Source: Ostreococcus lucimarinus (lineage: Eukaryota). From it: a stretch of DNA of 64,000 nt. The stretch lies in assembly GCA_000092065.1 (NCBI GenBank), contig CP000584.1. One strand, written 5' to 3'. The notes beneath the pieces were generated by a model. It ran no database searches and was not told the DNA's origin. It saw nothing but the letters and a program-made list of their open reading frames with translations. Of the stretch, positions 39,984 to 55,346 are shown piece after piece. A program made the position numbers and the translations under genes. Position 1 is the first letter of the stretch; each line of letters opens with the position of its first letter.

Positions 39984-42900
39984 CTAAGGGAAATCATCGG
40001 CGTCGCACGATGCGTCGGCGTCGCGCGAAGGTGGACGGAACGAGGCGACCGCGCCGGAGAGGGCGTGATCGACGGCTTTGGTGAAACCTTTGGCGCCGGT
40101 GACGGCGGCGTAGGGAACCTTGCGAACGGCGCCGAGGAGCGCGGCAGACGACGTGACATCGCCGGTGGCGTAATCTCGGATGGGCTCGACGACGAGTGCG
40201 TCGGTGGCGCGACGTGCGCCGCGCCACGCGGTTTTACTGGCGAGGGAGAGCCCGTGAAAGACGTTCGTCGGCGAAGAGACATCTTCGATTTCGCGTTCGG
40301 CGTCCACTATCATTCCTTCGGCGGCGGCGAGAAGGGCAGCGGATTGACCCGCGGCGAAAGCGCCGAGTTCGATCGATGATAGTGACACCTCTTTAACGAA
40401 AGAAGCGACGCCGAGAGCGAACCCAGCGACAACACCGCCGCGTCTGTTGTTTCGATGAAACTCCAGAGGTTTGGACACCAGACCGGCGGCTCGACGGCCG
40501 ATGTTGGTCGCCGATTTGATTGGCTTCACACTTTGCACAAACTTGTGTGCTTGTGTGCGCGTAATGTCATCAAGCCATGCATTTACGGCAGTTTGCACAA
40601 CCGGGACTACACCAGCGATTCCGGTAAGCCGAAGCGGCTGGATGTCGAGAAGGACCCCGTCCCAAGGCACGAGATTCAGCGCCTCGAGCAAGTTTCCAGA
40701 CCGCAGCGAGTCAATGTCAACTTGACGACCGCAATAGTCCAAACGAAGCGAAAGCCGATCGATCTCAATCTTTTGAAAGTATATCGACTCTTCACGTGGC
40801 GGTGATGCGACATGAGAAGAGTCATCAGAGTCGTCGGCAAAGACATCGAGCGCGAGCTTCAAGACGCGTTGATCGAGCTTGACGTGAATCGGTATCGACG
40901 AGGCCTTGAACAGATACTCAACTTCGGAAGGTGTTTTCGCATCCGGACGAACAGCCATTATGTCCAACGAACACATATCGCTTCGATCGCCTCGTTCGCC
41001 CGAGAGAACGTCGTATTTCAATACGTTTGGCCACGTTGCGCCCGCGGTGACGTCTGTACAAACAGCGTCGCGCACCGCGCACGCGATGCGATGCGCGGTT
41101 TCGCCTTCGCGCTGTGGGAACGAGTCAACGCGCACGGTGTTCGTTTTCAGTGAAAGTTTGATTCCTGCAGATACACCGAGCGGATCGACCTCCACAGAAT
41201 CCGCGTGCCTCGGCAAACTTGTCGGCGATTCGGACCAGAATAGCCCCGGCAAGATGTGTACATCGAACGTTTCGCCATTCACATGAACCGTGCTTTGCGG
41301 CACGACGACATCCTTTGGAAGCGGAAGGTATCGAGTGTGCGCATGGTCGCCGACACGCGGTAAAGACGGCGGCATCGCCGGTAGACGTGCTTCGACGAAT
41401 TCACCCGCAAATCGACTACGACTCATAATGGAGGCGTTCACGCCGCCGGCGCGCGCTCGACTTGAACTATGCTTTCTCACCGCCGTGACACTCCCTGCCG
41501 CTAACAACACCGTTTTACGCTTCCGACGGACTCGTCGATTGCTGCGATAGAAGAAGTTCTCGATTATGTTCGGTCCAACTCGGGCGTTCGTGTCACGTCG
41601 CACTAACAGACTTCTGTGATGAGCCTCACTAGTTTCCGTACTTCCGCGCTTCTGGCCTTCGAGTCGCCTAGGAAACATCTCGTCGTGATCGCGAGTCGCG
41701 GCGGCTATTTCATGCTCAGTTACGCTCGACGAGTATCGTGCGTGCGAGATATCTCTGGCCTTCTTCACAGGACTCACGAAGACGTACTCGTTCTCGTCGC
41801 CGCTCGCCGGACTCGCTGGACGATCAGCGCCTTCAACTTCCGACATGAATAGCCGCTTTAACGCGCGCAAAATGTCTCTCTGAAGCGACACGACGCAAGA
41901 TCGAGTGCTGACGGTGGCGATCGCAGTCTTCGAGCTTGAAGAGGACGTAATCAACGAAATCGCCTTTGCATTCATCACCGGCGCAAACCGCGCGGCGCAA
42001 ATAGTAGAATTCGTGAATGGAAACGCCGGTAACGTGCGAATGCCGTCAGTTGCCTTGATTTCGGGAGGCACCATAAACGCACTGATCTCGTTGCAGTACA
42101 TTTCGACGCCAAAGCTGGTCGAAACCCCCGCATCATGCGAACATTCTACCCCTTTGGAAGAAATGCGCAAAAAATCATTCTGAATGAGCGCGAACGAGTC
42201 ATTCGACTTGTATATGAGCACCAACTCGAATAAACTCAAAGAGAAACACAGTGTGGAAGAATCGCACACATTTGTATCGGCATCGACGTCTCTTGCGGGA
42301 GCAAAAGTATTCAGGCGCCGTATAAGCGGCTCGCACTGCGTTAACGAGGCCGACATTCCGACGACGTTTACGTCTGCGCATGCTGGCTCGCCCTCCATGC
42401 GAGCAAACGCGAGCGATGATTTCGAAGCGCCTTGATCTGAACTACGACACTCGACAAAGACTGTTTCGACGTTATCAGTAGTAACCCGAGCCGAATCAAA
42501 CTGCGTCCATACGAAATCTGAACCGAGAACGCCAGCGATGTTTGTCGCCGCAAAAACACGCGCACGCCTCAATTCGCACTCGACAAGTACAGAGTCATCG
42601 TCGGTGGAAGTCGAACACGTTCCATCTGTCAGTGGGGCATCAAGCTGCATGCGAAGCGCGCCGACATCGATTCCAAACGCCAAGGGGGTCATGACGGAGT
42701 CGGGCGTCGCGACTCGCAGCGCCATAGGGTGATTGTCTGGAAGCTCGTACATTGACTGAATGATAGTGGAAACCGATTCCACCACATCGATGCTCAACCT
42801 AGTTTCGATAATTGGCACATTCAATTTAACGAACAGTGACGCGTCGTTCGCAAGTTGCTCCCGAAGACATGTATCTGTCTCATTCGCTTCACGCCTGTTC

Positions 42901-44279
42901 TTCACCTTGGCCAAACAACGTTCGGGAAGCGAACCGTCTAGACGATACGCTGGATCTTCGAGCCAGTACACTGTCGCCGTGATATTTTCACTTAAGGACG
43001 CCGCTGTCACGCACTCGACACCATTCAATGCAAGTTTGGCGTGACCCATTTGCATCGACACGCAGTCGTCACGCAAGACTACACCGCACCTGTCATCGGC
43101 GCCAACCGAAGAAAGATGCAAAACCAACTCATGGTCGTCGTCGAACCCGTAAATACATCGCGCGTCACTCCAGCTCACATCTAATCGATCCGACAATTCA
43201 ATTCTAATCGCCGTCATCGTCAGTTTGCACACCACGTCGTCGAACGGCGCATCCATAGAAAACTGTGGACATTGAACGGTGAAGACCGTCGTTGCACTCG
43301 AAGGCTCCGCGGAAGAATCGATACCCAATGATTCCGACAACTCCCGTATTGCTACCTCTGCGTCGTCGAAGAACTCTTCGTTCAGCTCCTCGTTTGAGTC
43401 TTCGTAAACGCTGTCACCCATGCTCTCGCCCATGGCGTCGTTCGCTTCCTCATACGCGCTTGCGTACATGGCGGCCGACCCACTCGATAGCACATCGTCG
43501 ATGAATGAACGTCGCGGTCTCGACGTCGATGGCCGTTTTAGGCGAGCAGAAGATGCATTGGAACCAAATGCGTTCACGAGATCGACGAAATTCTTCACCG
43601 CGTGCACTGTAGCCGTCGTTTCGATGGTCTCCAACTCGACGTCGACGCGACTGAAATCACTTGGTATCTCTGCGTGCCCGGAAACGTCGCGCACCACGAC
43701 CTCGGACACCGAACATTCAACGCCAGTTGCGATTCGTCGCACAGACATCCCCGAGAAACTCACCCCTTGCCCGTGCGTATACTCTGCCGATTCGAGTCGC
43801 ACGAGAAACTTGCCCGCGCCCGCTGCGTCTTGCACCACTACGTTTACCCCTCTCAATCGCGCCTTGAGCCCACGACAGAGCGCATTCAACGCTTGCCGCA
43901 TGATCGCCGACCCTTGCGCGCGCGCGCCATCCTCTCTCTCGAGCGCGTCAAACACCTCCGCTTCGCCGCTCCCCGCGCTCGGTCGCGTCGTCACCGTCAC
44001 GTCCTCGAGCTCCAACGAGCACGACTCCCTCCCGATCGCCTCCCACGGAATCCGCCCCGTGACCGCCCCCACGCGCACCGCCACCAACTCCATACCCGTT
44101 CGCGCCTCAAAGTCGCCCGTCCACGCCGTGACGACGTTCGCGTCGAGCTCGACGTCCTCGAGTCTCGCCTCGCCCGCGCTCGCGTCCACTCTCGCTCGCC
44201 CGCGTTCGCCCTCACCGCCGCCGTCGCGCACCAACCGCGCGATCGCGCGTGATATGAAGTACTCGCATATTTTCCGCAT
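39984..44279 (-). CDS. ATG2: Autophagy-related protein 2 (ATG2; chorein-N lipid-transfer protein with an ATG2 C-terminal domain)
   Basis: ATG at 44277-44279 verified (MRKICEYFISRAIARLV..., chorein-N-like). The C-terminal region 'YFQKIEIDRLSLRLDYCGRQVDIDSLRSGNLLEALNLVPWDGVLLDIQPLRLTGIAGV' matches the ATG2/VPS13 ATG_C domain. The 1,431-aa size fits ATG2 rather than VPS13. No splice was needed, but internal introns cannot be excluded. Confidence 0.6.
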   Translation of the reverse strand: MRKICEYFISRAIARLVRDGGGEGERGRARVDASAGEARLEDVELDANVVTAWTGDFEARTGMELVAVRVGAVTGRIPWEAIGRESCSLELEDVTVTTRPSAGSGEAEVFDALEREDGARAQGSAIMRQALNALCRGLKARLRGVNVVVQDAAGAGKFLVRLESAEYTHGQGVSFSGMSVRRIATGVECSVSEVVVRDVSGHAEIPSDFSRVDVELETIETTATVHAVKNFVDLVNAFGSNASSARLKRPSTSRPRRSFIDDVLSSGSAAMYASAYEEANDAMGESMGDSVYEDSNEELNEEFFDDAEVAIRELSESLGIDSSAEPSSATTVFTVQCPQFSMDAPFDDVVCKLTMTAIRIELSDRLDVSWSDARCIYGFDDDHELVLHLSSVGADDRCGVVLRDDCVSMQMGHAKLALNGVECVTAASLSENITATVYWLEDPAYRLDGSLPERCLAKVKNRREANETDTCLREQLANDASLFVKLNVPIIETRLSIDVVESVSTIIQSMYELPDNHPMALRVATPDSVMTPLAFGIDVGALRMQLDAPLTDGTCSTSTDDDSVLVECELRRARVFAATNIAGVLGSDFVWTQFDSARVTTDNVETVFVECRSSDQGASKSSLAFARMEGEPACADVNVVGMSASLTQCEPLIRRLNTFAPARDVDADTNVCDSSTLCFSLSLFELVLIYKSNDSFALIQNDFLRISSKGVECSHDAGVSTSFGVEMYCNEISAFMVPPEIKATDGIRTLPAFPFTNSTICAARFAPVMNAKAISLITSSSSSKTAIATVSTRSCVVSLQRDILRALKRLFMSEVEGADRPASPASGDENEYVFVSPVKKARDISHARYSSSVTEHEIAAATRDHDEMFPRRLEGQKRGSTETSEAHHRSLLVRRDTNARVGPNIIENFFYRSNRRVRRKRKTVLLAAGSVTAVRKHSSSRARAGGVNASIMSRSRFAGEFVEARLPAMPPSLPRVGDHAHTRYLPLPKDVVVPQSTVHVNGETFDVHILPGLFWSESPTSLPRHADSVEVDPLGVSAGIKLSLKTNTVRVDSFPQREGETAHRIACAVRDAVCTDVTAGATWPNVLKYDVLSGERGDRSDMCSLDIMAVRPDAKTPSEVEYLFKASSIPIHVKLDQRVLKLALDVFADDSDDSSHVASPPREESIYFQKIEIDRLSLRLDYCGRQVDIDSLRSGNLLEALNLVPWDGVLLDIQPLRLTGIAGVVPVVQTAVNAWLDDITRTQAHKFVQSVKPIKSATNIGRRAAGLVSKPLEFHRNNRRGGVVAGFALGVASFVKEVSLSSIELGAFAAGQSAALLAAAEGMIVDAEREIEDVSSPTNVFHGLSLASKTAWRGARRATDALVVEPIRDYATGDVTSSAALLGAVRKVPYAAVTGAKGFTKAVDHALSGAVASFRPPSRDADASCDADDFP

Positions 44280-44552
44280 CCTCGCTCGCTCTCGCGCGCG
44301 CGCGTCCCCGCCGTCGCCGCGCCGACGAAATCCGAGGTGCCGAGTGACAGGTGCGTCGCGTTCGCGTCGCGCGTTTAAATTCTGCGCCTCGCCCGCGCGC
44401 GCGAGCTCGCGCGCGCGCCGCGAGCCTTCGCGCGCGACCGATCGACGCCTCGCGACGGCGTTCGCGCGCGCGCGCGCGTGTGGTGCCGCGGGTCGATGCG
44501 CGCTCGAATCGCACCGCACATCGCGACGCGTCGCTCGCGACCGATCGCGCGC

Positions 44553-44768
44553 ATGACGCGCACGGAGGTCACGCTCGCGGTCGACTTCGCGTGCGAAGGG
44601 TGCGCGGCGTCTGTGCGCAGGATCGCTGAGCGCATCGAGGGCGTGCGCGAGGTCGAGATCGACGTCGAGGCGAAGCGGTGCGTGGTGCGCGGGGACGCGT
44701 TGGACGCGGAGGACGTTCTCGCGCGCGTGCGCAAGTGTGGACGCGCGACGACGCTGCTGATGGAGTGA
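44553..44768 (+). CDS. ATX1: HMA-domain copper chaperone (ATX1-like)
   Basis: ATG at 44553 verified. 71 aa: 'MTRTEVTLAVDFACEGCAASVRRIAERIEGVREVEIDVEAKRCVVRGDALDAEDVLARVRKCGRATTLL', a ferredoxin-like HMA fold with a CxxC (CEGC) metal site. Confidence 0.6.
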   Translation: MTRTEVTLAVDFACEGCAASVRRIAERIEGVREVEIDVEAKRCVVRGDALDAEDVLARVRKCGRATTLLME

Positions 44769-44818
44769 CTTGCTCGTGTCCTGATGTTTTATTAGCGCGC
44801 GCGGGACGAATGGCACGA

Positions 44819-46234
44819 TCACGCGTCGTCGTCGTCGTCGCGCCGGCGGCCGCGGCGAACGGGCTTGGCGAACTTGGTCGCGACTTCGGGACCTTCGTCG
44901 TCGTCCTCGCCGTCGATGTCCCTGCCGTCGCAGACGTATAAAGCGACGAAAGTGCGACCGTAGCGCCGGTCGCGGACGCGGCGGAGACGCTTGCCGATGC
45001 TCGGGAGGATGTCACGCGCTTGGCCTTTGGCGTACTCGACGAGTAAAATGGTCGAGTCTTTGACCAGCGCCGACTCATCGAGCTGGAGGAGGAGCTCGGG
45101 ATACGATACTTTTTCGTACGGAGGGCAGAACGATATGAAATCGAACGCGCCGCCGACGCCTCGAGCGTTTTTGTGGTGCTGGTTCATGAAGGCTTGCACG
45201 CTTGCGGTGTGTGTCGTCGTTTGCTTGGTGAGACCGAGCGAATTCAGATTCTTGTTCGTGACGTTGTTCACCACCCAGGGGTCCATTTCGACGAAATGTG
45301 CCTCGACGACACCGCGCGATATCGACTCGATGCCGATCGCGCCAGTGCCGCAGAACATGTCCAACCATCTCGAGTCTGGCGGAAACTGCACGTTGCTTCG
45401 CGAACCGAGAAAGTTTAACATCATATCAAACGTCGCCCCACGCACCATGGACATCATCGGTCGCGTGTCTAAACCGCTCGGCGACAAAAGCTTTCTTCGT
45501 GCATACTTTCCAGCCACGATGGTCATGCGCTTGTGCGTTTTTCTCGTCGCCTCGTATTCCTTCTTCTTGTTAAACGTCGCCACCTCTTGTTTTTCCTCCT
45601 CGATTGCAAATAACAGATCCCTCGGTACCCCCATGCGCACCATGCGCTCGATGTCCTCCTTTTTCATCCCTTTATCATCCCTCTTTGCGTTTATCTCACT
45701 ACTTTCGCCCACCACGCGCTTCGGCTTCGCATCCGCCGCCGCGACGCCGCGCGGGTTCTTCTTCGGCGACTTTAACGACGTGTTCACCGCCTCCGAACTC
45801 CCACTCGCGCGATCGTTCTTCGTCGGCACGCGCACAAAGTCCATGACATATCCATTGCCACTGTCTTCGTCGTCGATGTTGAACAAATCTTCATTCGCCA
45901 CGCGCACGTTGGCGCCCTCCGGGACGAAGAACCAGTCGTCGTCCTCGTCGTCGTCCTCGTCGTCCCAGTCTTCATCGTCTTCGATCGCGATCGGGTCGTC
46001 GTCCTCCAAGTCTTCCTCGTTCCAAAACAATAAATCTTCCTCCGCGTCGGCCGCGCTGTCGTACTGTCCCTTGGCGCGCGTCGCGAGCGCGCGGCGCGGG
46101 AACGGAATCGACACGCGGTGGCGGCGGCGGCGGACGGGGACAGCGCGCGGTCGCGCGCACGACGTCGATGGCGGCGTCGCGACGCGAGAGCTCGACAGCA
46201 CGATTTGAGCGTGCGCGTGTGGCATCGCGCGCAT
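44819..46234 (-). CDS. RsmD-like rRNA (guanine-N2) methyltransferase with an acidic N-terminal region
   Basis: ATG at 46232-46234 verified. 'MTIVAGKYARRKLLSPSGLDTRPMMSMVRGATFDMMLNF...WLDMFCGTGAIGIESISRGV...AFDFISFCPPYEKV' carries the RsmD motifs (DPPY-like 'CPPY'). Confidence 0.65.
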   Translation of the reverse strand: MRAMPHAHAQIVLSSSRVATPPSTSCARPRAVPVRRRRHRVSIPFPRRALATRAKGQYDSAADAEEDLLFWNEEDLEDDDPIAIEDDEDWDDEDDDEDDDWFFVPEGANVRVANEDLFNIDDEDSGNGYVMDFVRVPTKNDRASGSSEAVNTSLKSPKKNPRGVAAADAKPKRVVGESSEINAKRDDKGMKKEDIERMVRMGVPRDLLFAIEEEKQEVATFNKKKEYEATRKTHKRMTIVAGKYARRKLLSPSGLDTRPMMSMVRGATFDMMLNFLGSRSNVQFPPDSRWLDMFCGTGAIGIESISRGVVEAHFVEMDPWVVNNVTNKNLNSLGLTKQTTTHTASVQAFMNQHHKNARGVGGAFDFISFCPPYEKVSYPELLLQLDESALVKDSTILLVEYAKGQARDILPSIGKRLRRVRDRRYGRTFVALYVCDGRDIDGEDDDEGPEVATKFAKPVRRGRRRDDDDDA

Positions 46235-46317: not shown

Positions 46318-48111
46318 TCAATTCGACGCGGTCCAGAACGTTTCCTCGTTTTCGGCGCCGTAACCGACGTAACGAGGTCGACGTTTACCCGCGGGAGTGA
46401 AGTGCTTGAGATAAAATGGAAGCCCGCCCTCGACTTCGACGACGTCGTCGAAGACTTCGGCGAGCGCGCGCAAGGCGTCCAAATGATACGCCTCGGAGGC
46501 TTCGGCGGCATGAAAGACGACGACTGGGGACGATTTGTCGGCGTATTTGCCATCAGCGTTGATGTTGTCTATCATCACGTCCACGGCTGGGTTGTCCACG
46601 GCGTCTGATAAGCCACCCGTGCGAATCGCCGCGGGCATGGACGTTGCTCCCTTGAGCGTCTCTCGATTGAAGTCTTTGACGGGACGAATGTCAAAGACAA
46701 CGGCGCCGCCTTCGATCAAGCGCTGCGCCTCGCCAATATTTTCGACGCGCCATGGCAGGGGCTCTTCATCTTCCTCTTCTACGATCATGACAGGTTCGGC
46801 GTTTTTGGCGTGTTCCTGCACCGCGATTCGCAACTTTGCCTTCGCGTCCTCTCGCATCTTTACCGCCTCGGCGTCGGGCTCTTTCAACAATTTATCACGT
46901 GCTTCATCGCGCGCGGCTTTCCTCGTAGCCGCGCGTCGAGCGGCGACGAGCTCTTCGGGCTCTTGCCAACGCATGTACTCTCGAGCGAGCTGAATATTAT
47001 TCACGTTTTCTTGCTCGCCAACGACGTTGCGTCCGCACGCCAACAGCCGCTCCAGCGTGATCGTCACGTCGCCTAATTTCAACCTCCGACGTTCATCTAA
47101 ACCGACGAGCGAGTCATTTAAACCATCTAAGCCGACGTTGAACACGAAATCACTGACGGCGTCATCATACACACGCGCGCGTAACGCGCCGAAGAAATCT
47201 AAAGGCTGATTCGGAAATGTCGCGACGAGCGTTTCGCAACACGCCGTCGTCAACCCGTCATCCTTCATCATAGCGTGTATCATCTCAACCAACTCTTGCG
47301 ACGTCGGCTCCCACATCCAAAGATCCATTCGACCGTCTCTCGTTAGAGGCGCATACAGTCGAGAAAAATCATTCCCCGTGACGATGATTGGCACGCGCGC
47401 GTTGGTAGATTTGGAGTCCGTCCTCCAAACCAGTCCCTCGCTCACGATCGTGGGATTGTCACAAATGTTCATCAACGTCCCGTGCGTGATTTGATTATTT
47501 ACAGTCCCCAGATCGTCCTTAAACTTACCGATCCCGGCGTCGATGTCGTTGATAATAAGACAACTCAACTTCCCCGTCTCTCTCATCGCTCGCGCGGCGG
47601 TCAGATACCTTCGCCGCAACATCGCCCCGGGCTCCCCCGCCGTCGAATCCTCCAACTCCCCCGCGCTCGTTACGATCGGCTGCAACCCCATTTTCTTACA
47701 CGCCAACTCCACGTTCATCGTTTTGCCGCAACCCTTGTGTCCCCAAATCCCCAAAATTAACGCCGGAGACGTCGCGCCGAGCGCCCCCTTATCCTTCAAC
47801 AAGTTCTTCACCACGTGCGTCGCCACGCGCTCGGCGAAGCGTTCCGGCACGTGAAACCCATCGAGCGCGGCGAACGTTCGAAACTCACGCTCGCGATGTT
47901 CGCCCGTCGCGACGTCCGCGTCGACGCCGAGAACGCTTCCTTTAAAGAGCTCTTCTTCGACACCGCTGCGTTGCGAGTAGATGAAATCTTGCCCGCCGAG
48001 CGCGTCCTCGCGCGCCGCGCGTCGCGTTCGACCGCGCGAGACGCGCCCCTGACGCGCCACGCGCGCACCGACGGGCGCGCGCGACGTCCGCGCGGGCCCG
48101 CGCGGCGCCAT
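46318..48111 (-). CDS. Rubisco-activase-like AAA+ ATPase fused to a C-terminal rhodanese-like domain that has no active-site Cys
   Basis: The track start at 48231 is GTG. The first ATG is M41 (cat at 48109-48111, verified; MAPRGPARTSRAPV...). The AAA+ module is clearly Rca-type ('GIWGHKGCGKT', 'LIINDIDAGIGKF', 'NQITHGTLMNICDNPT', 'VPIIVTGNDFSRLYAPLTRDGRMD'). A charged linker follows, then a roughly 130-aa rhodanese fold ('VVFDIRPVKDFNRETLKGATSMPAA...SPVVVFHAAEASEAYHLDALRALAEV...VEGGLPFY') in which the CxxGxR loop is replaced by FHAAEAS. Confidence 0.7.
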   Translation of the reverse strand: MAPRGPARTSRAPVGARVARQGRVSRGRTRRAAREDALGGQDFIYSQRSGVEEELFKGSVLGVDADVATGEHREREFRTFAALDGFHVPERFAERVATHVVKNLLKDKGALGATSPALILGIWGHKGCGKTMNVELACKKMGLQPIVTSAGELEDSTAGEPGAMLRRRYLTAARAMRETGKLSCLIINDIDAGIGKFKDDLGTVNNQITHGTLMNICDNPTIVSEGLVWRTDSKSTNARVPIIVTGNDFSRLYAPLTRDGRMDLWMWEPTSQELVEMIHAMMKDDGLTTACCETLVATFPNQPLDFFGALRARVYDDAVSDFVFNVGLDGLNDSLVGLDERRRLKLGDVTITLERLLACGRNVVGEQENVNNIQLAREYMRWQEPEELVAARRAATRKAARDEARDKLLKEPDAEAVKMREDAKAKLRIAVQEHAKNAEPVMIVEEEDEEPLPWRVENIGEAQRLIEGGAVVFDIRPVKDFNRETLKGATSMPAAIRTGGLSDAVDNPAVDVMIDNINADGKYADKSSPVVVFHAAEASEAYHLDALRALAEVFDDVVEVEGGLPFYLKHFTPAGKRRPRYVGYGAENEETFWTASN

Positions 48112-48423
48112 CGCGCGAAACACTGTCGCTTCGGGACAAAAGTGCGCGCGAGACGACGGGGACACGAGCCGCGGGCGTTCGCGCGCCGCACAACGCGACG
48201 ACGACGCGCGCGACGCGCGCGCGCGGCGCACACGGGTCGACGCGCGAACGGCACGAACGTTGGCGGCGCGCGAACGACGCGCGGGGCGAAGGCGACGCGA
48301 CGTGGGACGATTGATGCGCGACGGTTCGAGCCGTTACTGCCGACGCGCAAACAATCGTCGACGCGTGCTGACGAAAGGCGCGCGCGCGAAGGTGGAGGAG
48401 CGAACGAGGAGTGGATAGTGATC

Positions 48424-51400
48424 ATGGATGATAAGGTAGAACGGCGCGAGCGCACGGCGCGAGCGCTTCGCGAGGCGGAGTACGCGAAGGCGCAGCGAGG
48501 AAACTTTTTCGTGAGGAATCACGCGCGCGCCAAGCGGTATTGGTACGAGTTGAATCAAAACGATACCTCGTTGTACTTGTTCCCGCCCAGGAGTGGCGTG
48601 CGAAGGAACGCGCAACGATTGATTGCGTGGAAGTGGTTCGAGAGGGTGACGATCATGCTCATCGTGGCGAACTGCTTCACGCTCGCGTTGTACCGGCCGC
48701 TGGAGAAGCACGGACGAACGAATCAAAATTTAGAAGTCGCCGAAACGATCTTTACGGTGATGTTCACGTTGGAGTTTTTAGCGCGCGTGGTGGCGAATAA
48801 CTTTATATTCGGTCCGCCCGAATCGGACGTGTACTTGAGGGATGGATGGCGAGTTTTAGATTTCACCGTCGTCATCGGCGGTTGGGTCTCCGTCGGAGTT
48901 ATGGTCGCTGGTGGATCTGGAGGAGGTCTCACAGCTATTCGAGGTATTCGTGCACTGAGACCACTGCGATCGATTTCAGGGTTCCCTGGATTGCGCGTGT
49001 TCGTCTCGACGACATTTGCGTCGATGGGTATGGTTAGGGATGTCGTGTTTTTCCTCTTCGTCGTAATGATAGTCTTGGGTATCCTCGGCGTGCAGCGCTA
49101 CGCGGGTAAGCTGTCGAACAGATGCGCGTACGCAAGCACACTCGATCTCGTCATGGAACAAATCGAGTTTCCGTGCTCAAAATCTACCGGCGGTCGTTCT
49201 TGTGGACCCATGCAAGTGTGCATCGCTACTGCGTTGACGGGCATGGACGACGGTCATTCAACTTTCAACAACATCATGGGTGCGGGATTTATAATTTATA
49301 GAGTTTTGACATTGCGTGGGTGGACAGATTTGATGTATCAAGTCATAGACGCCACCGGTGATCGTGTTTTGGCGATAATTTACTTCATCATCATCGTCGC
49401 CGTCGGCGCAATTTTTGTTTCATCCTTTATGTTGGCGGCGGTGACGACAAAGTATCGACAGACGGCAATTTTAGACGAAAAAAGGGCGCTGGACGCCGAG
49501 ACGGAAGACAAATCGAAAGCGTTGAGCAATCCAAAAAGTAAGAGAGTGCTGGCGAGCAGGAGGGCGGGCCGATTTAGCTATGGAGAGCGCCTGGAGCGAA
49601 TGATGGAACGACCGTTGGCGTTCATGCGGCGGGAGTTCATCTACCAGCGTTGGCTGCAGATGTTTGTGAAGCACAAGTATTTCGAAAATGGTATAACTAG
49701 TGCGATTGTGGTAAATACAATCATACTGGCGGTGCACTTTCGTGGTATGGGGAGCGAGATGGAGACAGCTGTGAATAATCTGAATTACTTGCTTTTGTCA
49801 GTCTTCGTGTTCGAGTTGGTGATGAAAGTACTCGCATTCGGAATTTTAGGATATAGCAAGGATCGCTACAATTTGTTCGACGCGACTGTTGTCACTGCCG
49901 GTCTGATAGAGCTGGCATATCGTAACAGCAGCTTGGCCGTCGCACGCGCGTTCCGTCTGTTGCGAGTGATGCGCACGACTCGCCTCATCACAAGAAACAA
50001 GAACATGCGGCGTTTGATAGATACCACCATGGAGAGCTTCAGTGCTATTCTGAACTTTTGCGGTGTCCTATTCGTCTTTGTTTTCGTCTTCACGGTTTTA
50101 GGCATGCAGCTATTTGGTGGACGCGACGAGTTTTGGGATGCGCGGCCGAATTTCAACACCTTTGGGGATAGTTTTCTCTCTGTATTCGAGATTCTGACGG
50201 GATCGCATTGGTACAAGTTGATGCTCGTCGCCATGAGTGGCTCGTACGGCGCCCCTGCAGCCTTGTTTTTCATTTGCTGGTCCTTCATCGGTTCATTTGT
50301 GCTGTTGAATCTCATCGCGGCGATGCTCATTGACACATTTTCACGCACGATGCGAGCAAAGGAGCTCGAACTCGAGCGTTTGCGCGAGGAAAAGAAAGAG
50401 ACGGAACGCCGAGAGGCCGAGGCCAAACGTCAACGAGAAATCAATACTCTTCTCGAGGGAAACAATGATGATGAGATGGATAAGGTGGAAGTGCACCAGG
50501 AAGGCATAAGCACGGAGTTAACACGGTTGATGAAACCAAACGAGATTCGACGCCATCCGGATGCCAAGCGCATCGTGAATAGGATGAATACACGCAAACA
50601 GCGAGCATTTGCGAGAGAGGTGCAGCTGATAGAAAGGTGGCTGGAGATAATAGGTTTCACAGAAAATGATAGTGATGTTGACAGCGATAGTGAAGACAAC
50701 GCGGTGGATGCCAATGAACAGCTCGTCAAGGACCGAGCACTTTTAGTTGACGAGTTGGCGGTTGATGATGGCGTGCCAGAGAGCCAACTGACGACGCTCA
50801 TGCGAGAAAAGGCATCTAGAAAAGTATCCGCACTTGTCGCTACTGGTATCCCGATTCCCATGGATGATCGCCAGGTAAGGGCGGCCTATCGACGTTGGAG
50901 AATTGACGCGGCGGCGGAACAAGGCAGCGATAGCGACGAAGACATGAATATCCAGAACACAAACACACTACGGGATGAGTACGGCGGTACAGCGGACGGC
51001 ACGGCTGCCAGTGCAATGGAGGTCCGAAGACACTTGCAAGAACATGCGCTCGCTGAACTTCGACGCAGTCTGTTGGAGCGTAGCGGCGAGTCGGGTACTA
51101 AAGACGCGCTTCAATGGGCGTCGCAGGCGCCCACAATTGGCTTGGCGATGAAGAGCGCGGAGGCTCGGATGCGACCAGAAGAACAAACTGCGATCATCGC
51201 ACAACGTCGAGCGGAGGGCAACAAAAGTGGTCATCTCGGCAAATTCAAAGGAGACGGAATGAGCGCCGAAGGCGCTGCCGCAATCGCCGAGGCAAATTTG
51301 CTGAGCATGCGAATTCGCGAATCAGAGCGCTTGGAAGCTATAAAGAAGAAACGTGGCCAATCAGTCGACGAGGACGTGCCCGCGGCGTCCGACGACGTCG

Positions 51401-53838
51401 ACGCCAACGATGGACTAGCTCCATCACCTGTCAATCCGCCGACGGAGCGGAAGACGGCTTCTTGGCGCGCCAGGGTGAAATCTACGCAGCCTGGCGAAGA
51501 ACGCAAGTCGTTGTCGGAATCGCTGCGAGGTATGGCTGATAGACCAAGACCCGGTCCCGTGACAGAGTCTTTCAACGAAGATAACATATCTAGTGCGTCA
51601 CCGAGCAGAGATGGAGATACGATGTCAAATTCACACTCGGCACGAAGTCCCCGCAACTCGCGTTCACGCGGTTCGCAAACAACTGGAGATTCTGCGCACG
51701 CGTACAACACCCTCGTGCCCATCGTGGAGTATACGTCGATGCCACCCTTGCTGAACATAGACTACAGCCTCCCGAGGATATCCGAAGACGTACACGCCGG
51801 TAAAGCCAGGAAGGCGTTGGGATTACCCGTGCGTGACATCGTTGTTGATGAGACGAAAATTGACAAATCTTCAAAGAAGAACATCGCCGAAGAGGACTGG
51901 TTACGCAATGCCGGTGCGACAAAGGATGAGATTTGCATGATGTACCCGTCGTTGGGTTTCATCAAGCCGCGACGCCCGATGCGACGTTTGCTATTCATGC
52001 TTATCAAGCATCCCGCGTTTGAGGCGCTCATGCTCGTTCTCATCGTATTCTCGTGCATCCAGCTCGCGCTCGACGCGCCCACAGTGCATCCAGAAAGTGA
52101 TTTGGCCAGCGTTCTCAAAGCAGCGGACGTATCTTTCACGCTCATATTTTTGGGCGAGGCAATCATAAAAGTAATTGCGATGGGCTTCGTTATGCACCCA
52201 GGAGCATACCTTCGATCTCCTGCGAACTGCTTTGACTTTTTCATTGTCATCGTATCGCTCGCCGTCGAAACCATGAGCGCGTCAGCACTGAAGTCTATGC
52301 GCAGCTTCAGGTTATTTCGAGCTCTGCGTCCTTTGCGCCTGTTAAATCGAGTTAAGAGTATGCAAATCGTCGTTGCGACGCTGCTTCACGTCCTACCTGA
52401 TCTTGGGAGTGTGATGCTGTTGGGATTGTTTCAGTTTTTGATTTTCGCAATTCTGGGCTCGCAGTTATTTGCTGGTAAATTTGATTACTGCAACGACCCT
52501 ACGGTCTCTGGAATGCACGCGTGCGTCGGGACGTTCGTTGACGAGAAAGGTGCACACGTGACTCGCCGGTGGCTCAATCCGCCACTGAACTTCGATAACA
52601 CCCTGCTCGCTCTACTGAGTCTCTTCGTCATCGTCACACGTGACGGATGGCTTTCTGTAGCGTTTCAAGGCATGGACTCAACGGATACGGACTTGCAGCC
52701 ATCTTTAAACAACAGTGGCTGGACAGCTATTTATTTTTTGAGCTTTATTGTGATCCTCTCTTTCGTCTGGTTGAGTATGATCGTCGCCCTCGTGTGCGAG
52801 AGTTACAAGAAGGCTTGTGTGTTGAGCAACTCGACGCAGACGCTCAACGCCGAGCAGCAAGAGTGGGCGGAAGTTTTGCGTATGAAAAAACACGACGCCG
52901 AGCTCAAAATATTGGATGACGACACAACCGGGGCGCCACGGTTTTTCATTCGAAAATCGGCTTACTCCTTAGCCACGAACCCTCGATTTGAGGCTTTCAT
53001 CGTTGGCTGCATCATTGCCAACACTATCACCATGGCGTCGTATCACGACGGACAACCGAAAGCCTATGCCGAAATTCAACGAGCGGCGAATGTGTTTTTC
53101 TCTTGGATCTTCTTGTTAGAGCTCTCGTTGAAAATGGTCGCACTGTTCCCGAAACGTTACTTTTCAGAGCGCTGGAACGTGTTTGATTTCATCATCGTCG
53201 TGGCTAGTATTCCCGACCTCGCAGGTGTGGATTTCGCCGGTACCACGGTGCTCCGCGTCATCCGACTTGGACGCGCGCTACGTCTGTTTAAACAAGCGAA
53301 GGGTCTACGTACGGTTTTCAATACGCTATTGAGCTCCTTTGAAAGCGCGTTTAACGTCGTTTTCCTGATATTCATGTTGATGTTTGTGTACGCGGTGCTT
53401 GGCATGAATCTCTTCGGCGACTACGAAACCACGTATCCGAGTGGACGTGTGGAGAACTTTCGGAACTTTGGCGCATCGCTTATGGTTCTCTTGCGAGTCA
53501 TCACGCGTGATAATTGGAAGCGTATCATGTTCGACACGATGAAATGTGAATACAATGTGGACGGCGTCGCGGCGAATTGCAGTTACATCTTCGTCCCGGC
53601 GCTCTTCTTCACGAGCTTCATATTGTTGGGGGCGTACGTGTTGTTGAGCCTTATCATCGCCTCCATTTTGGACAAATTTACTGAAAACGCTGTGAACGAG
53701 GGCCTGCTTTCGACGGCGAATATATTCGTCACTGTCCGTCGAAAGTTGCTGCTTGACACGTTTTCCACCAAGCTCAAGATGAAGCTCGACTCGTTCAAAG
53801 TGAAGAAGCCCACGAGAGGGGCACGAAAGAAAAAGTAG
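48424..53838 (+). CDS. Four-domain (24-TM) voltage-gated cation channel, Cav/Nav superfamily, 1,804 aa
   Basis: ATG at 48424 verified. Four S1-S6 repeats, each with an Arg-every-third S4: DI 'IRGIRALRPLRSISGFPGLRV', DII 'FRLLRVMRTTRLITRNK', DIII 'MRSFRLFRALRPLRLLNRVKS', DIV 'LRVIRLGRALRLFKQAKGLR'. P-loops align unambiguously to Cav1 ('GWTDLMY', 'ILTGSHW', 'TRDGW', 'TRDNW'). The II-III linker is about 530 aa and coiled-coil rich. Everything in track ORF 47815.. before 48424 is antisense to the Rca-like gene. Confidence 0.85.
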   Translation: MDDKVERRERTARALREAEYAKAQRGNFFVRNHARAKRYWYELNQNDTSLYLFPPRSGVRRNAQRLIAWKWFERVTIMLIVANCFTLALYRPLEKHGRTNQNLEVAETIFTVMFTLEFLARVVANNFIFGPPESDVYLRDGWRVLDFTVVIGGWVSVGVMVAGGSGGGLTAIRGIRALRPLRSISGFPGLRVFVSTTFASMGMVRDVVFFLFVVMIVLGILGVQRYAGKLSNRCAYASTLDLVMEQIEFPCSKSTGGRSCGPMQVCIATALTGMDDGHSTFNNIMGAGFIIYRVLTLRGWTDLMYQVIDATGDRVLAIIYFIIIVAVGAIFVSSFMLAAVTTKYRQTAILDEKRALDAETEDKSKALSNPKSKRVLASRRAGRFSYGERLERMMERPLAFMRREFIYQRWLQMFVKHKYFENGITSAIVVNTIILAVHFRGMGSEMETAVNNLNYLLLSVFVFELVMKVLAFGILGYSKDRYNLFDATVVTAGLIELAYRNSSLAVARAFRLLRVMRTTRLITRNKNMRRLIDTTMESFSAILNFCGVLFVFVFVFTVLGMQLFGGRDEFWDARPNFNTFGDSFLSVFEILTGSHWYKLMLVAMSGSYGAPAALFFICWSFIGSFVLLNLIAAMLIDTFSRTMRAKELELERLREEKKETERREAEAKRQREINTLLEGNNDDEMDKVEVHQEGISTELTRLMKPNEIRRHPDAKRIVNRMNTRKQRAFAREVQLIERWLEIIGFTENDSDVDSDSEDNAVDANEQLVKDRALLVDELAVDDGVPESQLTTLMREKASRKVSALVATGIPIPMDDRQVRAAYRRWRIDAAAEQGSDSDEDMNIQNTNTLRDEYGGTADGTAASAMEVRRHLQEHALAELRRSLLERSGESGTKDALQWASQAPTIGLAMKSAEARMRPEEQTAIIAQRRAEGNKSGHLGKFKGDGMSAEGAAAIAEANLLSMRIRESERLEAIKKKRGQSVDEDVPAASDDVDANDGLAPSPVNPPTERKTASWRARVKSTQPGEERKSLSESLRGMADRPRPGPVTESFNEDNISSASPSRDGDTMSNSHSARSPRNSRSRGSQTTGDSAHAYNTLVPIVEYTSMPPLLNIDYSLPRISEDVHAGKARKALGLPVRDIVVDETKIDKSSKKNIAEEDWLRNAGATKDEICMMYPSLGFIKPRRPMRRLLFMLIKHPAFEALMLVLIVFSCIQLALDAPTVHPESDLASVLKAADVSFTLIFLGEAIIKVIAMGFVMHPGAYLRSPANCFDFFIVIVSLAVETMSASALKSMRSFRLFRALRPLRLLNRVKSMQIVVATLLHVLPDLGSVMLLGLFQFLIFAILGSQLFAGKFDYCNDPTVSGMHACVGTFVDEKGAHVTRRWLNPPLNFDNTLLALLSLFVIVTRDGWLSVAFQGMDSTDTDLQPSLNNSGWTAIYFLSFIVILSFVWLSMIVALVCESYKKACVLSNSTQTLNAEQQEWAEVLRMKKHDAELKILDDDTTGAPRFFIRKSAYSLATNPRFEAFIVGCIIANTITMASYHDGQPKAYAEIQRAANVFFSWIFLLELSLKMVALFPKRYFSERWNVFDFIIVVASIPDLAGVDFAGTTVLRVIRLGRALRLFKQAKGLRTVFNTLLSSFESAFNVVFLIFMLMFVYAVLGMNLFGDYETTYPSGRVENFRNFGASLMVLLRVITRDNWKRIMFDTMKCEYNVDGVAANCSYIFVPALFFTSFILLGAYVLLSLIIASILDKFTENAVNEGLLSTANIFVTVRRKLLLDTFSTKLKMKLDSFKVKKPTRGARKKK

Positions 53839-54035: not shown

Positions 54036-55346
54036 TTATTTTTCAGTCTTTTCTTTCTGCTCGGATGTTTCATTCTCAGTCTTGATGGCTTTTATCTTTG
54101 CCGACGTTGTCGCCGTTACGGAAGTGTTTGCGGCGGGCGCCACCGAGCCAAAGCCGTATGGATTTTGCATCGCTCCTTGGAACTGTTGCATTTGAATGAA
54201 GTGCGCCGCCATCTGCTGGTTAAACATCTGTTGCTGAATCGCTTGGAAAACTGCCGGATTTGAATGATCTTGCTGATCTGTGAATTGCGCCCACGGATTC
54301 TGGAACAGCGATGAGTACTGCATCGCCGACATCACGTTTCCAGAGCCGGGCGCCCGAGCGGCCGGGGCGTACGTAGTCGTCGCCGCGGTGGCAGCTGTAG
54401 GATAAGAAGGCGTCGGATGCGATAAACAGTCTGTTTTAAGCGCAGCCTCAGAGATGGGCGTGGCTGGTGCGACGTGCGCGCCGCTCAGCGCAGGTTGTGG
54501 TAGGGACGCCGAATTCTGCATGCCGCCAAATGGGAACATGCTCTTGTTCCAAAACTGCATCCCCCAGCGCGAGGCGGCTGACATTATGGCTGCCGAAGCC
54601 GCCGCAGCGGCCGCAGCTTGAGCTTGGGCGTGCTTGTCGCTCGTCGACAACATACCCGCGTTCACGTATCCCGCGACGGTCGGGTCGATGCCCCACCCTG
54701 AGACGTTGTAGCCCATCGCGGCGGTGTCGCCTACGGGCGCTTGTTGCGACCCTTCCGCGCTCCCTTGCTCATCGGTGGGCGATCGGTCGCGCAGCGCGGT
54801 GTCTGAACCAGCGTTCGACCCGTTGGTGTTCCATCCCGAGGGCTGTCGTCCGCCGTAACCCGAGTTCATGCCTTCGCCTTGCTCGGCTTCGGTGGCGCTT
54901 CCGTCTGAGGAACCGTCGCGCTTGGTTCGCGCCGTCTTGCTCCGATTTCTGTTCGAGCCCTTCTCAGCGGGCGTCGCCGGCGTGCATCTCGCCCGCTTAC
55001 CGCCAACATGTTGATCATCGTTGCCCTGCGCAACCGCGAATCGCCCCCGTACATCCTTGAGCGAATTCTTCTTTCTCCGTCCCGCGCCCACGCGCACGTT
55101 GCGCAACGACCCGCCTTCGGTCCAATACCTGCAACACTTCTTACAGTAGAACCTCGGCTGCTTGATGTTGTAATTGTTATAGTAACAAAACTTCGTATCG
55201 TCGCTCTTACACCGCGGGCACGCCACCGCGTAATCCGGCTTCGGCAAAGGTTCGCGCTTCTTCTCGTCGCCGCCGACCTCCGTCTTCGCGCGCGCACGCT
55301 TCCCCGCGTTCGCCGCATCACCGTCCCCGCTCGCGCGCGCGTTCAT
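54036..55346 (-). CDS. DOF: Dof-type zinc-finger transcription factor
   Basis: The track start is TTG. The first ATG is at 55344-55346 (verified). The C2C2 Dof domain '[45 protein letters not shown]' is a textbook match. It is followed by a long low-complexity Q/A/S-rich region, and the gene's 3' third has lower GC. Confidence 0.8.

What the first reader, a model, noticed from the sequence alone, without database searches (positions are those of the whole stretch)
46318..48111. Second Rubisco-activase paralog fused to a catalytically dead rhodanese-like domain
The window holds a canonical green-type Rca (2529..3740) and, 43 kb away, a second Rca-type AAA+ gene (46318..48111). Its Walker A/B and sensor regions are intact. 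Its C-terminus carries a roughly 130-aa rhodanese fold in which the active-site loop is FHAAEAS, with no Cys, so it is a sensor or binding module rather than a sulfurtransferase. I am not aware of an Rca-rhodanese architecture in land-plant or Chlamydomonas Rca. It may represent a lineage-specific regulator of Rubisco or another AAA+ client that reads phosphate or redox state. Both the divergence of the N-terminal specificity region and the fusion are read directly from the translation.
Basis: partly seen in the sequence, partly recalled or inferred. Interest (0 to 1): 0.6.

Follow-up and report, generated by a model that had tools for sequence, protein, structure and literature searches.

The report
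Rubisco-activase-like ATPase with dead rhodanese domain
This Ostreococcus lucimarinus gene really does encode a Rubisco-activase-type motor protein fused to a rhodanese domain that has lost its catalytic cysteine, and it belongs to an old, widespread and uncharacterised green-algal family, so it is not a one-off fusion.

Summary
A single 597-codon ORF lies on the minus strand at 46318..48111. It encodes an Arg/Ala-rich presequence, a conserved N-terminal motif, and a complete Rca-type AAA+ module that is 42% identical to the canonical Rca at 2529..3758. A charged helical linker follows, then a Cys-free rhodanese domain and a highly conserved, disordered 25-residue tail.

The window is Ostreococcus lucimarinus. 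Its public model XP_001417523.1 stops at residue 381 and so hides the fusion.

The fusion is not lineage-specific. It occurs in two Rca-like clades spanning Mamiellophyceae, Pyramimonadophyceae, Tetraselmis, Pycnococcus, Micractinium and Prasinoderma. Every one of the 89 fused rhodanese domains aligned at the catalytic position lacks the Cys there.

All ATPase residues are intact. Several residues essential for canonical Rubisco reactivation are missing: the pore-loop-2 Tyr, the N-domain Trp and the helix-H9 Asn.

My best reading is a plastid Rca-derived remodelling ATPase that finds its client, or is regulated, through its own N-motif and the pseudo-rhodanese plus tail. It is probably not a redundant activase. 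Its function is untested, and I found no paper describing it.

The parts
46318..48111 (-). Complete CDS of the Rca-like/pseudo-rhodanese protein (597 aa plus stop)
   Evidence: ORF listing and translation. The identical protein is called as one gene on metagenome contigs. XP_001417523.1 is an exact prefix, residues 1-381.
48007..48111 (-). Residues 1-35: an Arg/Ala-rich, almost acid-free presequence, inferred to be a chloroplast transit peptide
   Evidence: Composition is 11 R and 7 A of 35 residues, with one acidic residue, the last. It is poorly conserved, at 9-31% identity, and has pLDDT below 50. Localisation is inferred, not tested.
47860..48006 (-). Residues 36-84: clade-specific N-terminal motif (DALGGQDFIYSQRSGVEEELFKG...VDADVATG). 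It is a diverged counterpart of the disordered Rca N-domain and contains no Trp.
   Evidence: It is 65-88% identical across Mamiellophyceae, as conserved as the ATPase core or more so. There is no Trp before residue 123.
47308..47859 (-). Residues 85-268: AAA+ alpha/beta nucleotide-binding subdomain
   Evidence: Pfam AAA. It is 40-43% identical to solved Rca structures, with TM-scores of 0.83-0.91 normalised to the target. Catalytic residues are invariant.
47719..47742 (-). Walker A, GHKGCGKT (residues 124-131), with Cys128 where canonical Rca has Gln
   Evidence: Translation. Cys is found in 24/28 clade-A Mamiellophyceae members and 22/26 rhodanese-bearing clade-B members. It is found in 0/12 land-plant Rca-like proteins and 1/4 canonical Rca.
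47506..47508 (-). Gly202, at the position of the essential pore-loop-2 Tyr of canonical Rca (NtRca Tyr188, NosRca Tyr116)
   Evidence: Column counts give Y in 4/4 canonical sequences and G/V/S/L/A/C in the clade of this protein. The essentiality of the Tyr is stated in 10.1101/2020.05.16.099382.
46966..47307 (-). Residues 269-382: Rca-type alpha-helical subdomain with sensor 2; the helix-H9 region reads LNDSLVG
   Evidence: Pfam PF21228, E 5.9e-24.
46759..46965 (-). Residues 383-451: charged E/A/K/R-rich helical linker ending in an acidic stretch
   Evidence: AF2 predicts helices 385-409 and 414-437. It is the least conserved part, at 12-43% identity.
46396..46758 (-). Residues 452-572: pseudo-rhodanese domain
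46495..46515 (-). FHAAEAS (residues 533-539): the former active-site loop, with His or Phe where the catalytic Cys should be
   Evidence: Translation. The family-wide column has no Cys in any of 89 aligned domains.
46321..46395 (-). Residues 573-597: conserved, predicted-disordered C-terminal tail, PAGKRRPRYVGYGAENEETFWTASN
   Evidence: It is 76-96% identical across Mamiellophyceae, the best-conserved segment. pLDDT is below 50 over the last 16-17 residues (581-597). It is found only in this family among 1.84 billion representative proteins.
2529..3758 (-). Canonical green-type Rca ORF, the paralog used for comparison
   Evidence: Pfam PF21228 at 1e-34 and AAA at 9e-16. It has the pore-loop-2 Tyr and the N-domain Trp. 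Its clade has 100% bootstrap support.

Best explanation
The gene encodes a nuclear-encoded, probably plastid-targeted AAA+ protein descended from green-type Rubisco activase. It belongs to a non-canonical 'Rca-like' lineage.

Shown here:
- It is one continuous gene with an Rca-fold AAA+ module.
- Every ATP-binding and ATP-hydrolysis residue is present.
- A long helical linker leads to a rhodanese domain that contains no cysteine, followed by a short disordered tail.
- The tail and an N-terminal motif are the best-conserved parts outside the ATPase core.

Inferred:
- It assembles into an ATP-hydrolysing ring like Rca.
- It does not work as an ordinary Rubisco activase, because several residues essential for canonical reactivation are missing.
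- It recognises its client, or is switched on and off, through its own N-motif and the tethered pseudo-rhodanese plus tail. These would act as a docking module, in the way the SSUL domain serves cyanobacterial Rca or dead rhodanese domains serve MAP-kinase phosphatases.
- The most likely client is still Rubisco or a Rubisco-associated complex, engaged in a different mode.
- The Cys in the Walker A loop (GCGKT, as in p97 D2) is a plausible thiol switch on ATPase activity.
For: Identity and architecture. The top eight structural neighbours are all Rca, with E 1e-21 to 1e-27; the next neighbour is p97 at 1e-9.

Intact ATPase residues in all 94 family members examined.

Non-canonical status:
- The canonical clade separates with 100% bootstrap support.
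- The pore-loop-2 Tyr is Gly here. It is called essential.
- There is no Trp in the N-region. Trp-9 is required in Chlamydomonas Rca (PMC13172511).
- The H9 Asn and the alpha4-beta4 Pro/Tyr, which are Rubisco-contact residues whose mutation abolishes reactivation, are replaced.

Constraint on the termini: the tail is 76-96% identical and the N-motif 65-88% identical across genera, against 31-76% for the rhodanese domain and 12-43% for the linker.

Walker A Cys precedent: S-glutathionylation of p97 Cys522 in the D2 ATP pocket inhibits the ATPase (PMC5389986). Cys128 and Cys138 track with the rhodanese-bearing members.
Against: - Nothing here tests activity, localisation or partners.
- Pore loop 1 and most of the Rca-specific helical subdomain are conserved, so a Rubisco-activating function with altered contacts cannot be excluded.
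- The Cys/rhodanese co-occurrence rests on only a few independent loss events and may be phylogenetic inertia.
- The split into clades A and B has only 54-66% NJ bootstrap support.
- Fold similarity to docking-type rhodaneses does not discriminate function, since GlpE, an active enzyme, scores almost as well.
- The transit peptide is inferred from composition only.
Confidence: 0.6

Rival explanations
1. It is a genuine second Rubisco activase isoform. It has the same job as the canonical Rca, and the C-terminal rhodanese plus tail acts as a regulatory extension, analogous to the redox-sensitive C-terminal extension of the plant alpha isoform.
For: - It is 42% identical to the neighbouring canonical Rca and 40-43% identical to solved Rca structures.
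- It has an Rca-specific helical-subdomain Pfam hit.
- Pore loop 1 and the PL2 TVNNQ core are conserved.
- The N-motif is recognisably derived from the Rca N-domain.
Against: - It lacks the Tyr equivalent to Tyr188, the N-domain Trp, the H9 Asn and the alpha4-beta4 Pro/Tyr. Each of these is individually required in canonical systems.
- It sits outside the canonical clade, which has 100% bootstrap support.
- The genome already carries a canonical Rca 43 kb away.
Confidence: 0.2
2. It is an Rca-derived AAA+ remodeller that has switched to a client other than Rubisco, such as another stromal enzyme complex. The pseudo-rhodanese and tail would be the new specificity module.
For: - It has lost several Rubisco-contact residues while keeping the ATPase intact.
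- It has strongly conserved, clade-specific terminal motifs.
- Three Rca-family genes coexist in Ostreococcus and Bathycoccus, which suggests sub-functionalisation.
Against: - No candidate client emerged.
- The tail motif occurs in no other protein family.
- Neighbouring genes are unrelated.
- The Rca-type helical subdomain, which carries Rubisco specificity in canonical Rca, is retained.
Confidence: 0.17
3. The fusion is an annotation or reading artefact. Two adjacent genes, an AAA+ gene and a rhodanese gene, would happen to share a frame, as the truncated reference model XP_001417523.1 (381 aa) might suggest.
For: The public O. lucimarinus model ends at residue 381.
Against: - There is no stop codon for another 216 codons.
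- The same architecture appears in more than 70 homologues from different genera.
- O. tauri (594 aa) and Bathycoccus (596 aa) have full-length models.
- Transcriptome-derived Pyramimonas proteins and a Tetraselmis protein carry the fusion.
- The linker and tail are conserved in register.
Confidence: 0.02
4. The C-terminal domain is an active sulfurtransferase or a Cdc25/ArsC-type phosphatase.
For: The Pfam Rhodanese hit, and JGI's automatic name 'rhodanese-related sulfurtransferase'.
Against: There is no Cys anywhere in residues 360-597. No Cys sits at the catalytic column in any of the 89 fused domains aligned there.
Confidence: 0.01

Closest known systems
Green-type Rubisco activase (plant, green-algal and Nostoc Rca; PDB 4w5w, 3t15, 6z1f)
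   Same: It has the same AAA+ fold and the same Rca-specific helical subdomain, at 40-43% identity. It shares the Walker A/B, sensor 1/2, Arg fingers and pore loop 1. It also has a disordered N-terminal region of related sequence.
   Different: - The pore-loop-2 Tyr is Gly.
- There is no N-domain Trp.
- The H9 Asn is Gly.
- The alpha4-beta4 loop is longer, SEGLVW in place of LPGxY.
- The Walker A residue is Cys, not Gln.
- It carries a 215-residue C-terminal extension with a rhodanese domain.
Cyanobacterial Rca-like protein with a C-terminal SSUL domain (NosRca; Flecken et al., 10.1101/2020.05.16.099382)
   Same: The design logic matches: an Rca AAA+ core, a flexible linker, and a small non-enzymatic C-terminal domain. 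In Nostoc that domain docks onto Rubisco and drives localisation.
   Different: The appended domain is a rhodanese fold, not an RbcS-like fold. No RuBisCO_small/SSUL hit was found. NosRca keeps the PL2 Tyr and the Rubisco-contact residues. Docking by the rhodanese domain is only an analogy here.
Land-plant and core-chlorophyte 'Rca-like' proteins (P0100 and P0106 type, about 430 aa; from my own knowledge these correspond to Arabidopsis At1g73110)
   Same: They are non-canonical Rca paralogs that have also lost the PL2 Tyr (M or V instead). They share the VSxGxxWRxxD alpha4-beta4 loop and keep all ATPase residues.
   Different: They have no rhodanese domain or tail. They have a different N-motif (DYLYxLG...). 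They have Gln, Phe and Ala/Ser where this protein has Cys128, Cys138 and Cys217. They are equally uncharacterised; only omics mentions of At1g73110 were found.
Non-catalytic rhodanese domains used as docking modules (DUSP16/MKP-7, MKP5, USP8; plant TROL At4g01050)
   Different: Sequence identity is only 13-19%. The host proteins are unrelated. Their docking function has been shown, whereas here it is inferred.
p97/VCP D2 Walker A Cys522
   Same: A Cys sits immediately before the GK[T] of Walker A (GCGKT). In p97, oxidative modification of this residue blocks the ATPase (PMC5389986). The p97 motif sequence itself is from my own knowledge.
   Different: It is a different AAA+ family. Redox sensitivity of Cys128 has not been tested.

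Membership tests
AAA+ ATPase (classic clade) | Walker A GxxxxGK[ST], Walker B acidic residues, sensor-1 Asn, Arg fingers and sensor-2 Arg | tested here: met
   K130, D189/D191, N247, R258/R261 and R311 are present, and invariant in all family members examined. Pfam AAA gives E 1.5e-13.
Rubisco activase superfamily (green-type Rca fold) | Rca-specific alpha-helical subdomain (PF21228), with solved Rca structures as the closest neighbours | tested here: met
   PF21228 scores 84.6 bits against a cutoff of 27. phmmer to 4w5w, 3t15 and 6z1d gives E 5e-74 to 8e-69. The Foldseek top eight are all Rca.
Canonical (functional) green-type Rubisco activase | Conserved aromatic residue in pore loop 2 (NtRca Tyr188, NosRca Tyr116) | tested here: not met
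   The residue is Gly202 here. The column reads Y in 4/4 canonical sequences and G/V/S/L/A/C in this clade. Its functional importance is stated.
Canonical (functional) green-type Rubisco activase | N-domain Trp required for Rubisco binding and activation (CrRca Trp-9) | tested here: not met
   There is no Trp in residues 1-122. The requirement is taken from PMC13172511.
Canonical (functional) green-type Rubisco activase | Rubisco-contact residues: the H9 Asn (NosRca N248) and the alpha4-beta4 loop Pro/Tyr (P140/Y143) | tested here: not met
   H9 reads LNDSLVG, with Gly at the Asn position. The alpha4-beta4 loop reads SEGLVW, with no Pro and with Trp near the Tyr position. The loop alignment is approximate.
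Canonical (functional) green-type Rubisco activase | ATP-dependent reactivation of inhibited Rubisco | not testable with these tools
   A biochemical assay is needed.
Canonical (functional) green-type Rubisco activase | Placement inside the canonical Rca clade | tested here: not met
   In the NJ tree of 281 AAA+ columns, the canonical clade has 100% bootstrap support and excludes this protein.
Rhodanese homology domain (PF00581) | Alpha/beta rhodanese fold recognisable by sequence profile and by structure | tested here: met
Catalytic rhodanese / sulfurtransferase / Cdc25-type phosphatase | Active-site Cys at the start of the loop after the central beta-strand | tested here: not met
   The loop is FHAAEAS and residues 360-597 contain no Cys. 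None of the 89 domains aligned at that column has Cys there.
Cyanobacterial Rca-like / ALC | C-terminal RbcS-like (SSUL) domain | tested here: not met
   No RuBisCO_small-type Pfam hit at E <= 1. The C-terminal domain is a rhodanese fold.

The most novel reading that the evidence does not exclude
The dead rhodanese domain and its invariant tail could be the ancestral client-docking module of a second Rubisco-directed AAA+ system, mechanistically distinct from canonical Rca. On this reading the system was present in the common ancestor of green plants. It is kept in prasinophyte-grade algae, in two or three copies per genome, and reduced to the rhodanese-less 'Rca-like' proteins of land plants. 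Its ATPase would be gated by thiol modification of a Walker A cysteine. If so, green algae have a redox-controlled Rubisco remodeller that the field has overlooked, and the function of the plant At1g73110-type genes becomes approachable.
Probability: 0.15. Interest if true: 0.75.

Novelty: new variant of a known kind. Interest (0 to 1): 0.5.

Why it matters
Rubisco activase is a major target for improving photosynthesis, yet the non-canonical Rca-like paralogs of plants and algae have no assigned function.

This locus shows three things about that lineage. In early-diverging green algae it carries a conserved pseudo-rhodanese domain and a near-invariant terminal peptide. Several Rubisco-contact residues were lost across the whole lineage. 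The ATPase machinery is under strict constraint.

That yields concrete, testable handles on an otherwise opaque family: tail deletion, a C128S mutant, and partner capture in transformable O. tauri. It also echoes the cyanobacterial strategy of tethering a small docking domain to Rca.

Finally, it flags a truncated reference gene model that hides the architecture in O. lucimarinus.

Tried and rejected
1. phmmer of the C-terminal 158 aa alone against PDB returned only designed armadillo repeats and no rhodanese. A family profile was needed.
2. I searched 5.8 billion proteins with the C-terminal profile for free-standing rhodaneses with the same tail. All 13 hits were short pieces, mostly on short contigs, and those I inspected carry the family's linker or tail.
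3. I searched 1.84 billion representatives exhaustively with a 40-residue tail profile, to see whether the tail is a shared targeting motif like the Chlamydomonas Rubisco-binding motif. It found family members, one 209-aa rhodanese-like protein with a diverged tail (P0253), and two spurious repeat proteins, P0251 and P0252. By eye, the tail does not fit [D/N]W[R/K]xx[LIVA].
4. The afdb50 fold library was unavailable.
5. Literature searches found no paper describing an Rca-rhodanese fusion or characterising these genes. I searched Rca plus rhodanese, At1g73110, activase-like, RCA2, Rca-like, Ostreococcus plus rhodanese, and accession numbers.
6. Neighbouring genes gave no functional clue, as expected for a eukaryote. 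They are an RsmD-like methyltransferase, a four-domain cation channel, ATG2 and a Dof factor.
7. I considered a 20-nt GT..AG interval upstream of the canonical Rca ORF as an intron and rejected it as too short.
8. I considered phosphate or anion sensing by the rhodanese loop. It is disfavoured by the neutral to acidic loop chemistry, but this was not tested.
Full report
**1. The observation**

The feature is on the minus strand. One ORF runs from the ATG at 48111 (MAPRGPARTS...) to a stop at 46318-46320 and is 597 codons long. The frame is open upstream to a GTG at 48231, but there is no earlier ATG.

Pfam finds AAA (residues 122-264, E 1.5e-13) and the Rubisco-activase-specific helical subdomain PF21228 (273-367, E 5.9e-24). 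It also finds Rhodanese (461-564) at 24.0 bits against a curated cutoff of 22.2. That score rises to 27.5 bits (E 4.4e-6) when the C-terminal 158 residues are scanned alone.

The protein is 42% identical over 323 residues to the ORF at 2529..3758(-). That ORF scores as a canonical Rca.

**2. Is the rhodanese call more than chance?**

The Pfam score is borderline, so I tested it in independent ways.

- The single sequence finds no solved rhodanese.
- A profile of 26 C-termini from homologues hits 6mxv (1.5e-7), Arabidopsis At5g66040/1tq1 (3.7e-7, aligned over the whole domain), GlpE (4.5e-5) and further rhodaneses.
- All 26 sequences hit PF00581 individually.
- An AlphaFold2 model of residues 440-597 has mean pLDDT 87, and about 95 inside the domain.
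- Its 50 best Foldseek matches in the PDB are all rhodanese-domain structures.

The loop FHAAEAS is residues 533-539. Depending on register, Phe533 or His534 occupies the catalytic-Cys position. This does not matter for the conclusion, because the protein has no Cys after residue 359. The domain is therefore a pseudo-enzyme.

**3. Anatomy**

Coordinates are checked, structure, and conservation.

| Residues | Element | Notes |
|---|---|---|
| 1-35 | Arg/Ala-rich presequence | Poorly conserved; transit peptide inferred from composition only |
| 36-84 | Conserved, predicted-disordered N-motif | DALGGQDFIYSQRSGVEEELFKG...VDADVATG; a diverged relative of the Rca N-domain |
| 85-268 | AAA+ alpha/beta subdomain | |
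| 269-382 | Rca-type helical subdomain | |
| 383-451 | Two long charged helices and an acidic stretch | Least conserved part |
| 452-572 | Pseudo-rhodanese domain | |
| 573-597 | Tail PAGKRRPRYVGYGAENEETFWTASN | Last 16-17 residues predicted disordered |

Identity across Mamiellophyceae, by region:

| Region | Identity |
|---|---|
| Tail | 76-96% |
| N-motif | 65-88% |
| AAA+ alpha/beta subdomain | 61-86% |
| Rhodanese domain | 31-76% |
| Linker | 14-43% |

The tail is therefore the best-conserved segment of the protein. A strongly conserved yet disordered terminus is the signature of a short linear binding motif.

**4. Source organism and gene model**

The window is Ostreococcus lucimarinus CCE9901. 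NCBI XP_001417523.1 ('predicted protein, partial', 381 aa) is an exact prefix of this ORF. The public model stops just after the AAA+ module, although the frame continues for 216 more codons. The fusion is therefore invisible in that annotation.

The exact 597-aa protein is called as a single gene on contigs in 581 blocks of the metagenome collection. O. tauri (CEF97602.1, 594 aa) and Bathycoccus (XP_007512805.1, 596 aa) have full-length models.

**5. The family**

Of the 120 best homologues, 76 carry a C-terminal domain alignable to this one, and some carry two. Named sources include:

- Ostreococcus and Bathycoccus
- Cymbomonas
- Pyramimonas (MMETSP transcript)
- Tetraselmis (UniRef A0A061RKG8)
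- Pycnococcus and Pseudoscourfieldia
- Micractinium
- Prasinoderma coloniale, which belongs to Prasinodermophyta

At least the MMETSP (Pyramimonas) proteins are transcript-derived, so related fusions do exist on single mRNAs.

Ostreococcus and Bathycoccus also have a third Rca-family gene with two dead rhodanese domains. These are P0065 (947 aa, whose cluster contains O. lucimarinus XP_001420873.1) and P0058 (1026 aa, with a WW domain).

In an NJ tree of 281 AAA+ columns, the canonical Rca clade is separated with 100% bootstrap support. The rest splits into two clades:

- **Clade A** contains this protein. It has the N-motif LGGQDFIYSQ and always carries a rhodanese domain.
- **Clade B** has the N-motif DYLYELGRQ. 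Its prasinophyte-grade members, Tetraselmis and Prasinoderma carry a rhodanese domain; its Chlorella-type members and the roughly 430-aa land-plant Rca-like proteins do not.

The A/B split has only 54-66% support.

This protein's rhodanese domain finds the clade-B rhodaneses by phmmer at E 1e-8 to 1e-10, but it finds no solved rhodanese on its own. Both groups share the invariant Trp before the first strand and the P-x-G-K-x-R motif after the last helix. This favours one ancestral fusion followed by losses, but the inference is moderate.

In all 89 fused rhodanese domains aligned at the catalytic column, the residue there is G, H, D, A, P or V, and never Cys. The loop is often acidic, for example GDGGGDG or DDNGNE.

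**6. Is it a Rubisco activase?**

Its fold and ancestry say yes. The eight best structural matches of the full-length model are Nostoc, Arabidopsis and tobacco Rca, with E 1e-21 to 1e-27 and target-normalised TM-scores of 0.83-0.91. The next match is p97 at 1e-9. phmmer gives 5e-74 to 4w5w. All ATPase residues are invariant across the canonical clade and clades A and B: K130, D189/D191, N247, R258/R261 and R311.

Several residues needed for canonical function are missing.

- **Pore-loop-2 Tyr (NtRca Tyr188, NosRca Tyr116).** It is described as highly conserved and functionally critical, and it forms the inter-subunit network that rigidifies the pore. It is Gly202 here. It is non-aromatic in most clade-A and clade-B members, while it is Tyr in 4/4 canonical sequences.
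- **N-domain Trp.** Point mutants of Trp-9 in Chlamydomonas Rca remain functional ATPases but cannot activate Rubisco or partition into the Rubisco condensate (PMC13172511). Residues 1-122 of this protein contain no Trp.
- **H9 Asn and alpha4-beta4 Pro/Tyr.** In NosRca, triple mutants covering N248 or P140/Y143 abolish reactivation. Here the H9 region reads LNDSLVG and the loop reads SEGLVW. The loop alignment is approximate.

So the protein is an Rca-fold ATPase, but it fails four sequence tests for canonical activase function. The biochemical test could not be run.

**7. Cysteines**

Canonical Rca has Gln, Phe and Ala at three positions where this protein has Cys128, Cys138 and Cys217. Cys128 lies in Walker A (GHKGCGKT).

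| Group | Cys at position 128 | Cys at position 138 |
|---|---|---|
| Clade-A Mamiellophyceae | 24/28 | 28/28 |
| Rhodanese-bearing clade-B members | 22/26 | 25/26 |
| Rhodanese-less algal members | 6/20 | 2/20 |
| Land-plant members | 0/12 | 0/12 |

The association is suggestive, but it rests on few independent events.

A Cys at the same Walker A position in p97 D2 (Cys522) is S-glutathionylated under oxidative stress, and this inhibits the ATPase (PMC5389986). This is the most concrete route to a redox input. It lies in the motor, not in the rhodanese domain.

**8. Mechanism proposed**

Shown: the architecture, the intact ATPase motifs, the dead rhodanese domain, the conserved terminal motifs and the non-canonical clade placement.

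Inferred: a plastid-located, ring-forming ATPase that uses its own N-motif and the tethered pseudo-rhodanese plus tail to dock onto a client or regulator.

Two analogies support the docking idea. One is the SSUL domain of cyanobacterial Rca. The other is the set of dead rhodanese domains that serve as docking modules in MAP-kinase phosphatases and USP8, which are among the closest structural neighbours.

Rubisco or a Rubisco-associated complex remains the most economical client, because the Rca-specific subdomain and pore loop 1 are retained. The mode of engagement must nevertheless differ from canonical Rca.

In Chlamydomonas and Ulva, several rhodanese-domain proteins (STR16, STR18, RBMP2, CAS) are pyrenoid components of unknown role (PMC10473226; 10.64898/2026.07.16.738900). 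That is an intriguing parallel. From my own knowledge, however, Ostreococcus and Bathycoccus lack pyrenoids, so the function cannot be pyrenoid-specific.

**9. Novelty and score**

The proteins are in public databases under automatic names: 'Ribulose bisphosphate carboxylase/oxygenase activase, chloroplastic', 'P-loop containing NTP hydrolase' and 'rhodanese-related sulfurtransferase'. Eight full-text searches found no paper that describes the Rca-rhodanese architecture or assigns a function to this lineage.

I rate it a new variant of a known kind. It is a real, ancient and constrained family with a distinctive architecture and clear experimental handles, but no function has been demonstrated. 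Interest is 0.5.

Noticed in passing
window 46318..46968 (codons 382-597 of the gene): The public O. lucimarinus model XP_001417523.1 ('predicted protein, partial', 381 aa) ends exactly after the AAA+ module, although the ORF continues for 216 codons. The linker, rhodanese domain and tail are therefore unannotated in that model.
   Followed up: yes
not in the window; proteins P0065 (947 aa; its cluster holds O. lucimarinus XP_001420873.1, partial) and P0058 (1026 aa, Bathycoccus): There is a third Rca-family paralog in Ostreococcus and Bathycoccus. It carries two tandem Cys-less rhodanese domains, and the Bathycoccus-type proteins also carry a WW domain. Its O. lucimarinus reference model is likewise truncated to the AAA+ part.
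   Followed up: partly
window 3740..3790, minus strand: The canonical Rca ORF (2529..3758) has no in-frame ATG upstream of the conserved N-domain, apart from the Met just before SRWKG. A short ATG-initiated stretch at 3781 is followed by GT, but the GT..AG interval is only 20 nt. The true 5' end and transit-peptide exon are unresolved.
   Followed up: partly
residues 128, 138 and 217 (window 47728..47730, 47698..47700, 47461..47463): Three cysteines replace the Gln, Phe and Ala of canonical Rca. Cys128 and Cys138 co-occur with the rhodanese domain across the family, and land-plant Rca-like proteins lack all three (Cys217 persists in rhodanese-less algae). This could be a redox triad or only shared ancestry.
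   Followed up: partly
window 47815..53838 (+), 44819..46234 (-), 39984..44822 (-), 54036..55481 (-), 5225..7876 (-): The neighbours are ordinary eukaryotic genes: a four-domain voltage-gated-type cation channel (Ion_trans x4), an RsmD-like methyltransferase (Cons_hypoth95), ATG2, a Dof zinc-finger factor and an FCP1/BRCT phosphatase. The channel ORF's GTG-initiated 5' extension overlaps the 5' end of the Rca-like gene on the other strand. That is probably just an open frame in GC-rich DNA.
   Followed up: partly
protein P0076 (386 aa, Logan contig of 1.4 kb): This protein has the clade-A-type N-motif (LGGADHLLSQASGVEDELFKG), but its AAA+ body clusters with canonical Rca and it keeps the pore-loop-2 Tyr. 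It could be an intermediate form or a recombinant.
   Followed up: no
protein P0253 (209 aa): This is the only hit to the tail profile that lacks a recognisable AAA+ part. It is a short rhodanese-like protein with a diverged tail (FTPAGKRRQKGAWGAGTEMSFWTASN) followed by extra sequence. It may be a fragment or a mis-called gene.
   Followed up: no
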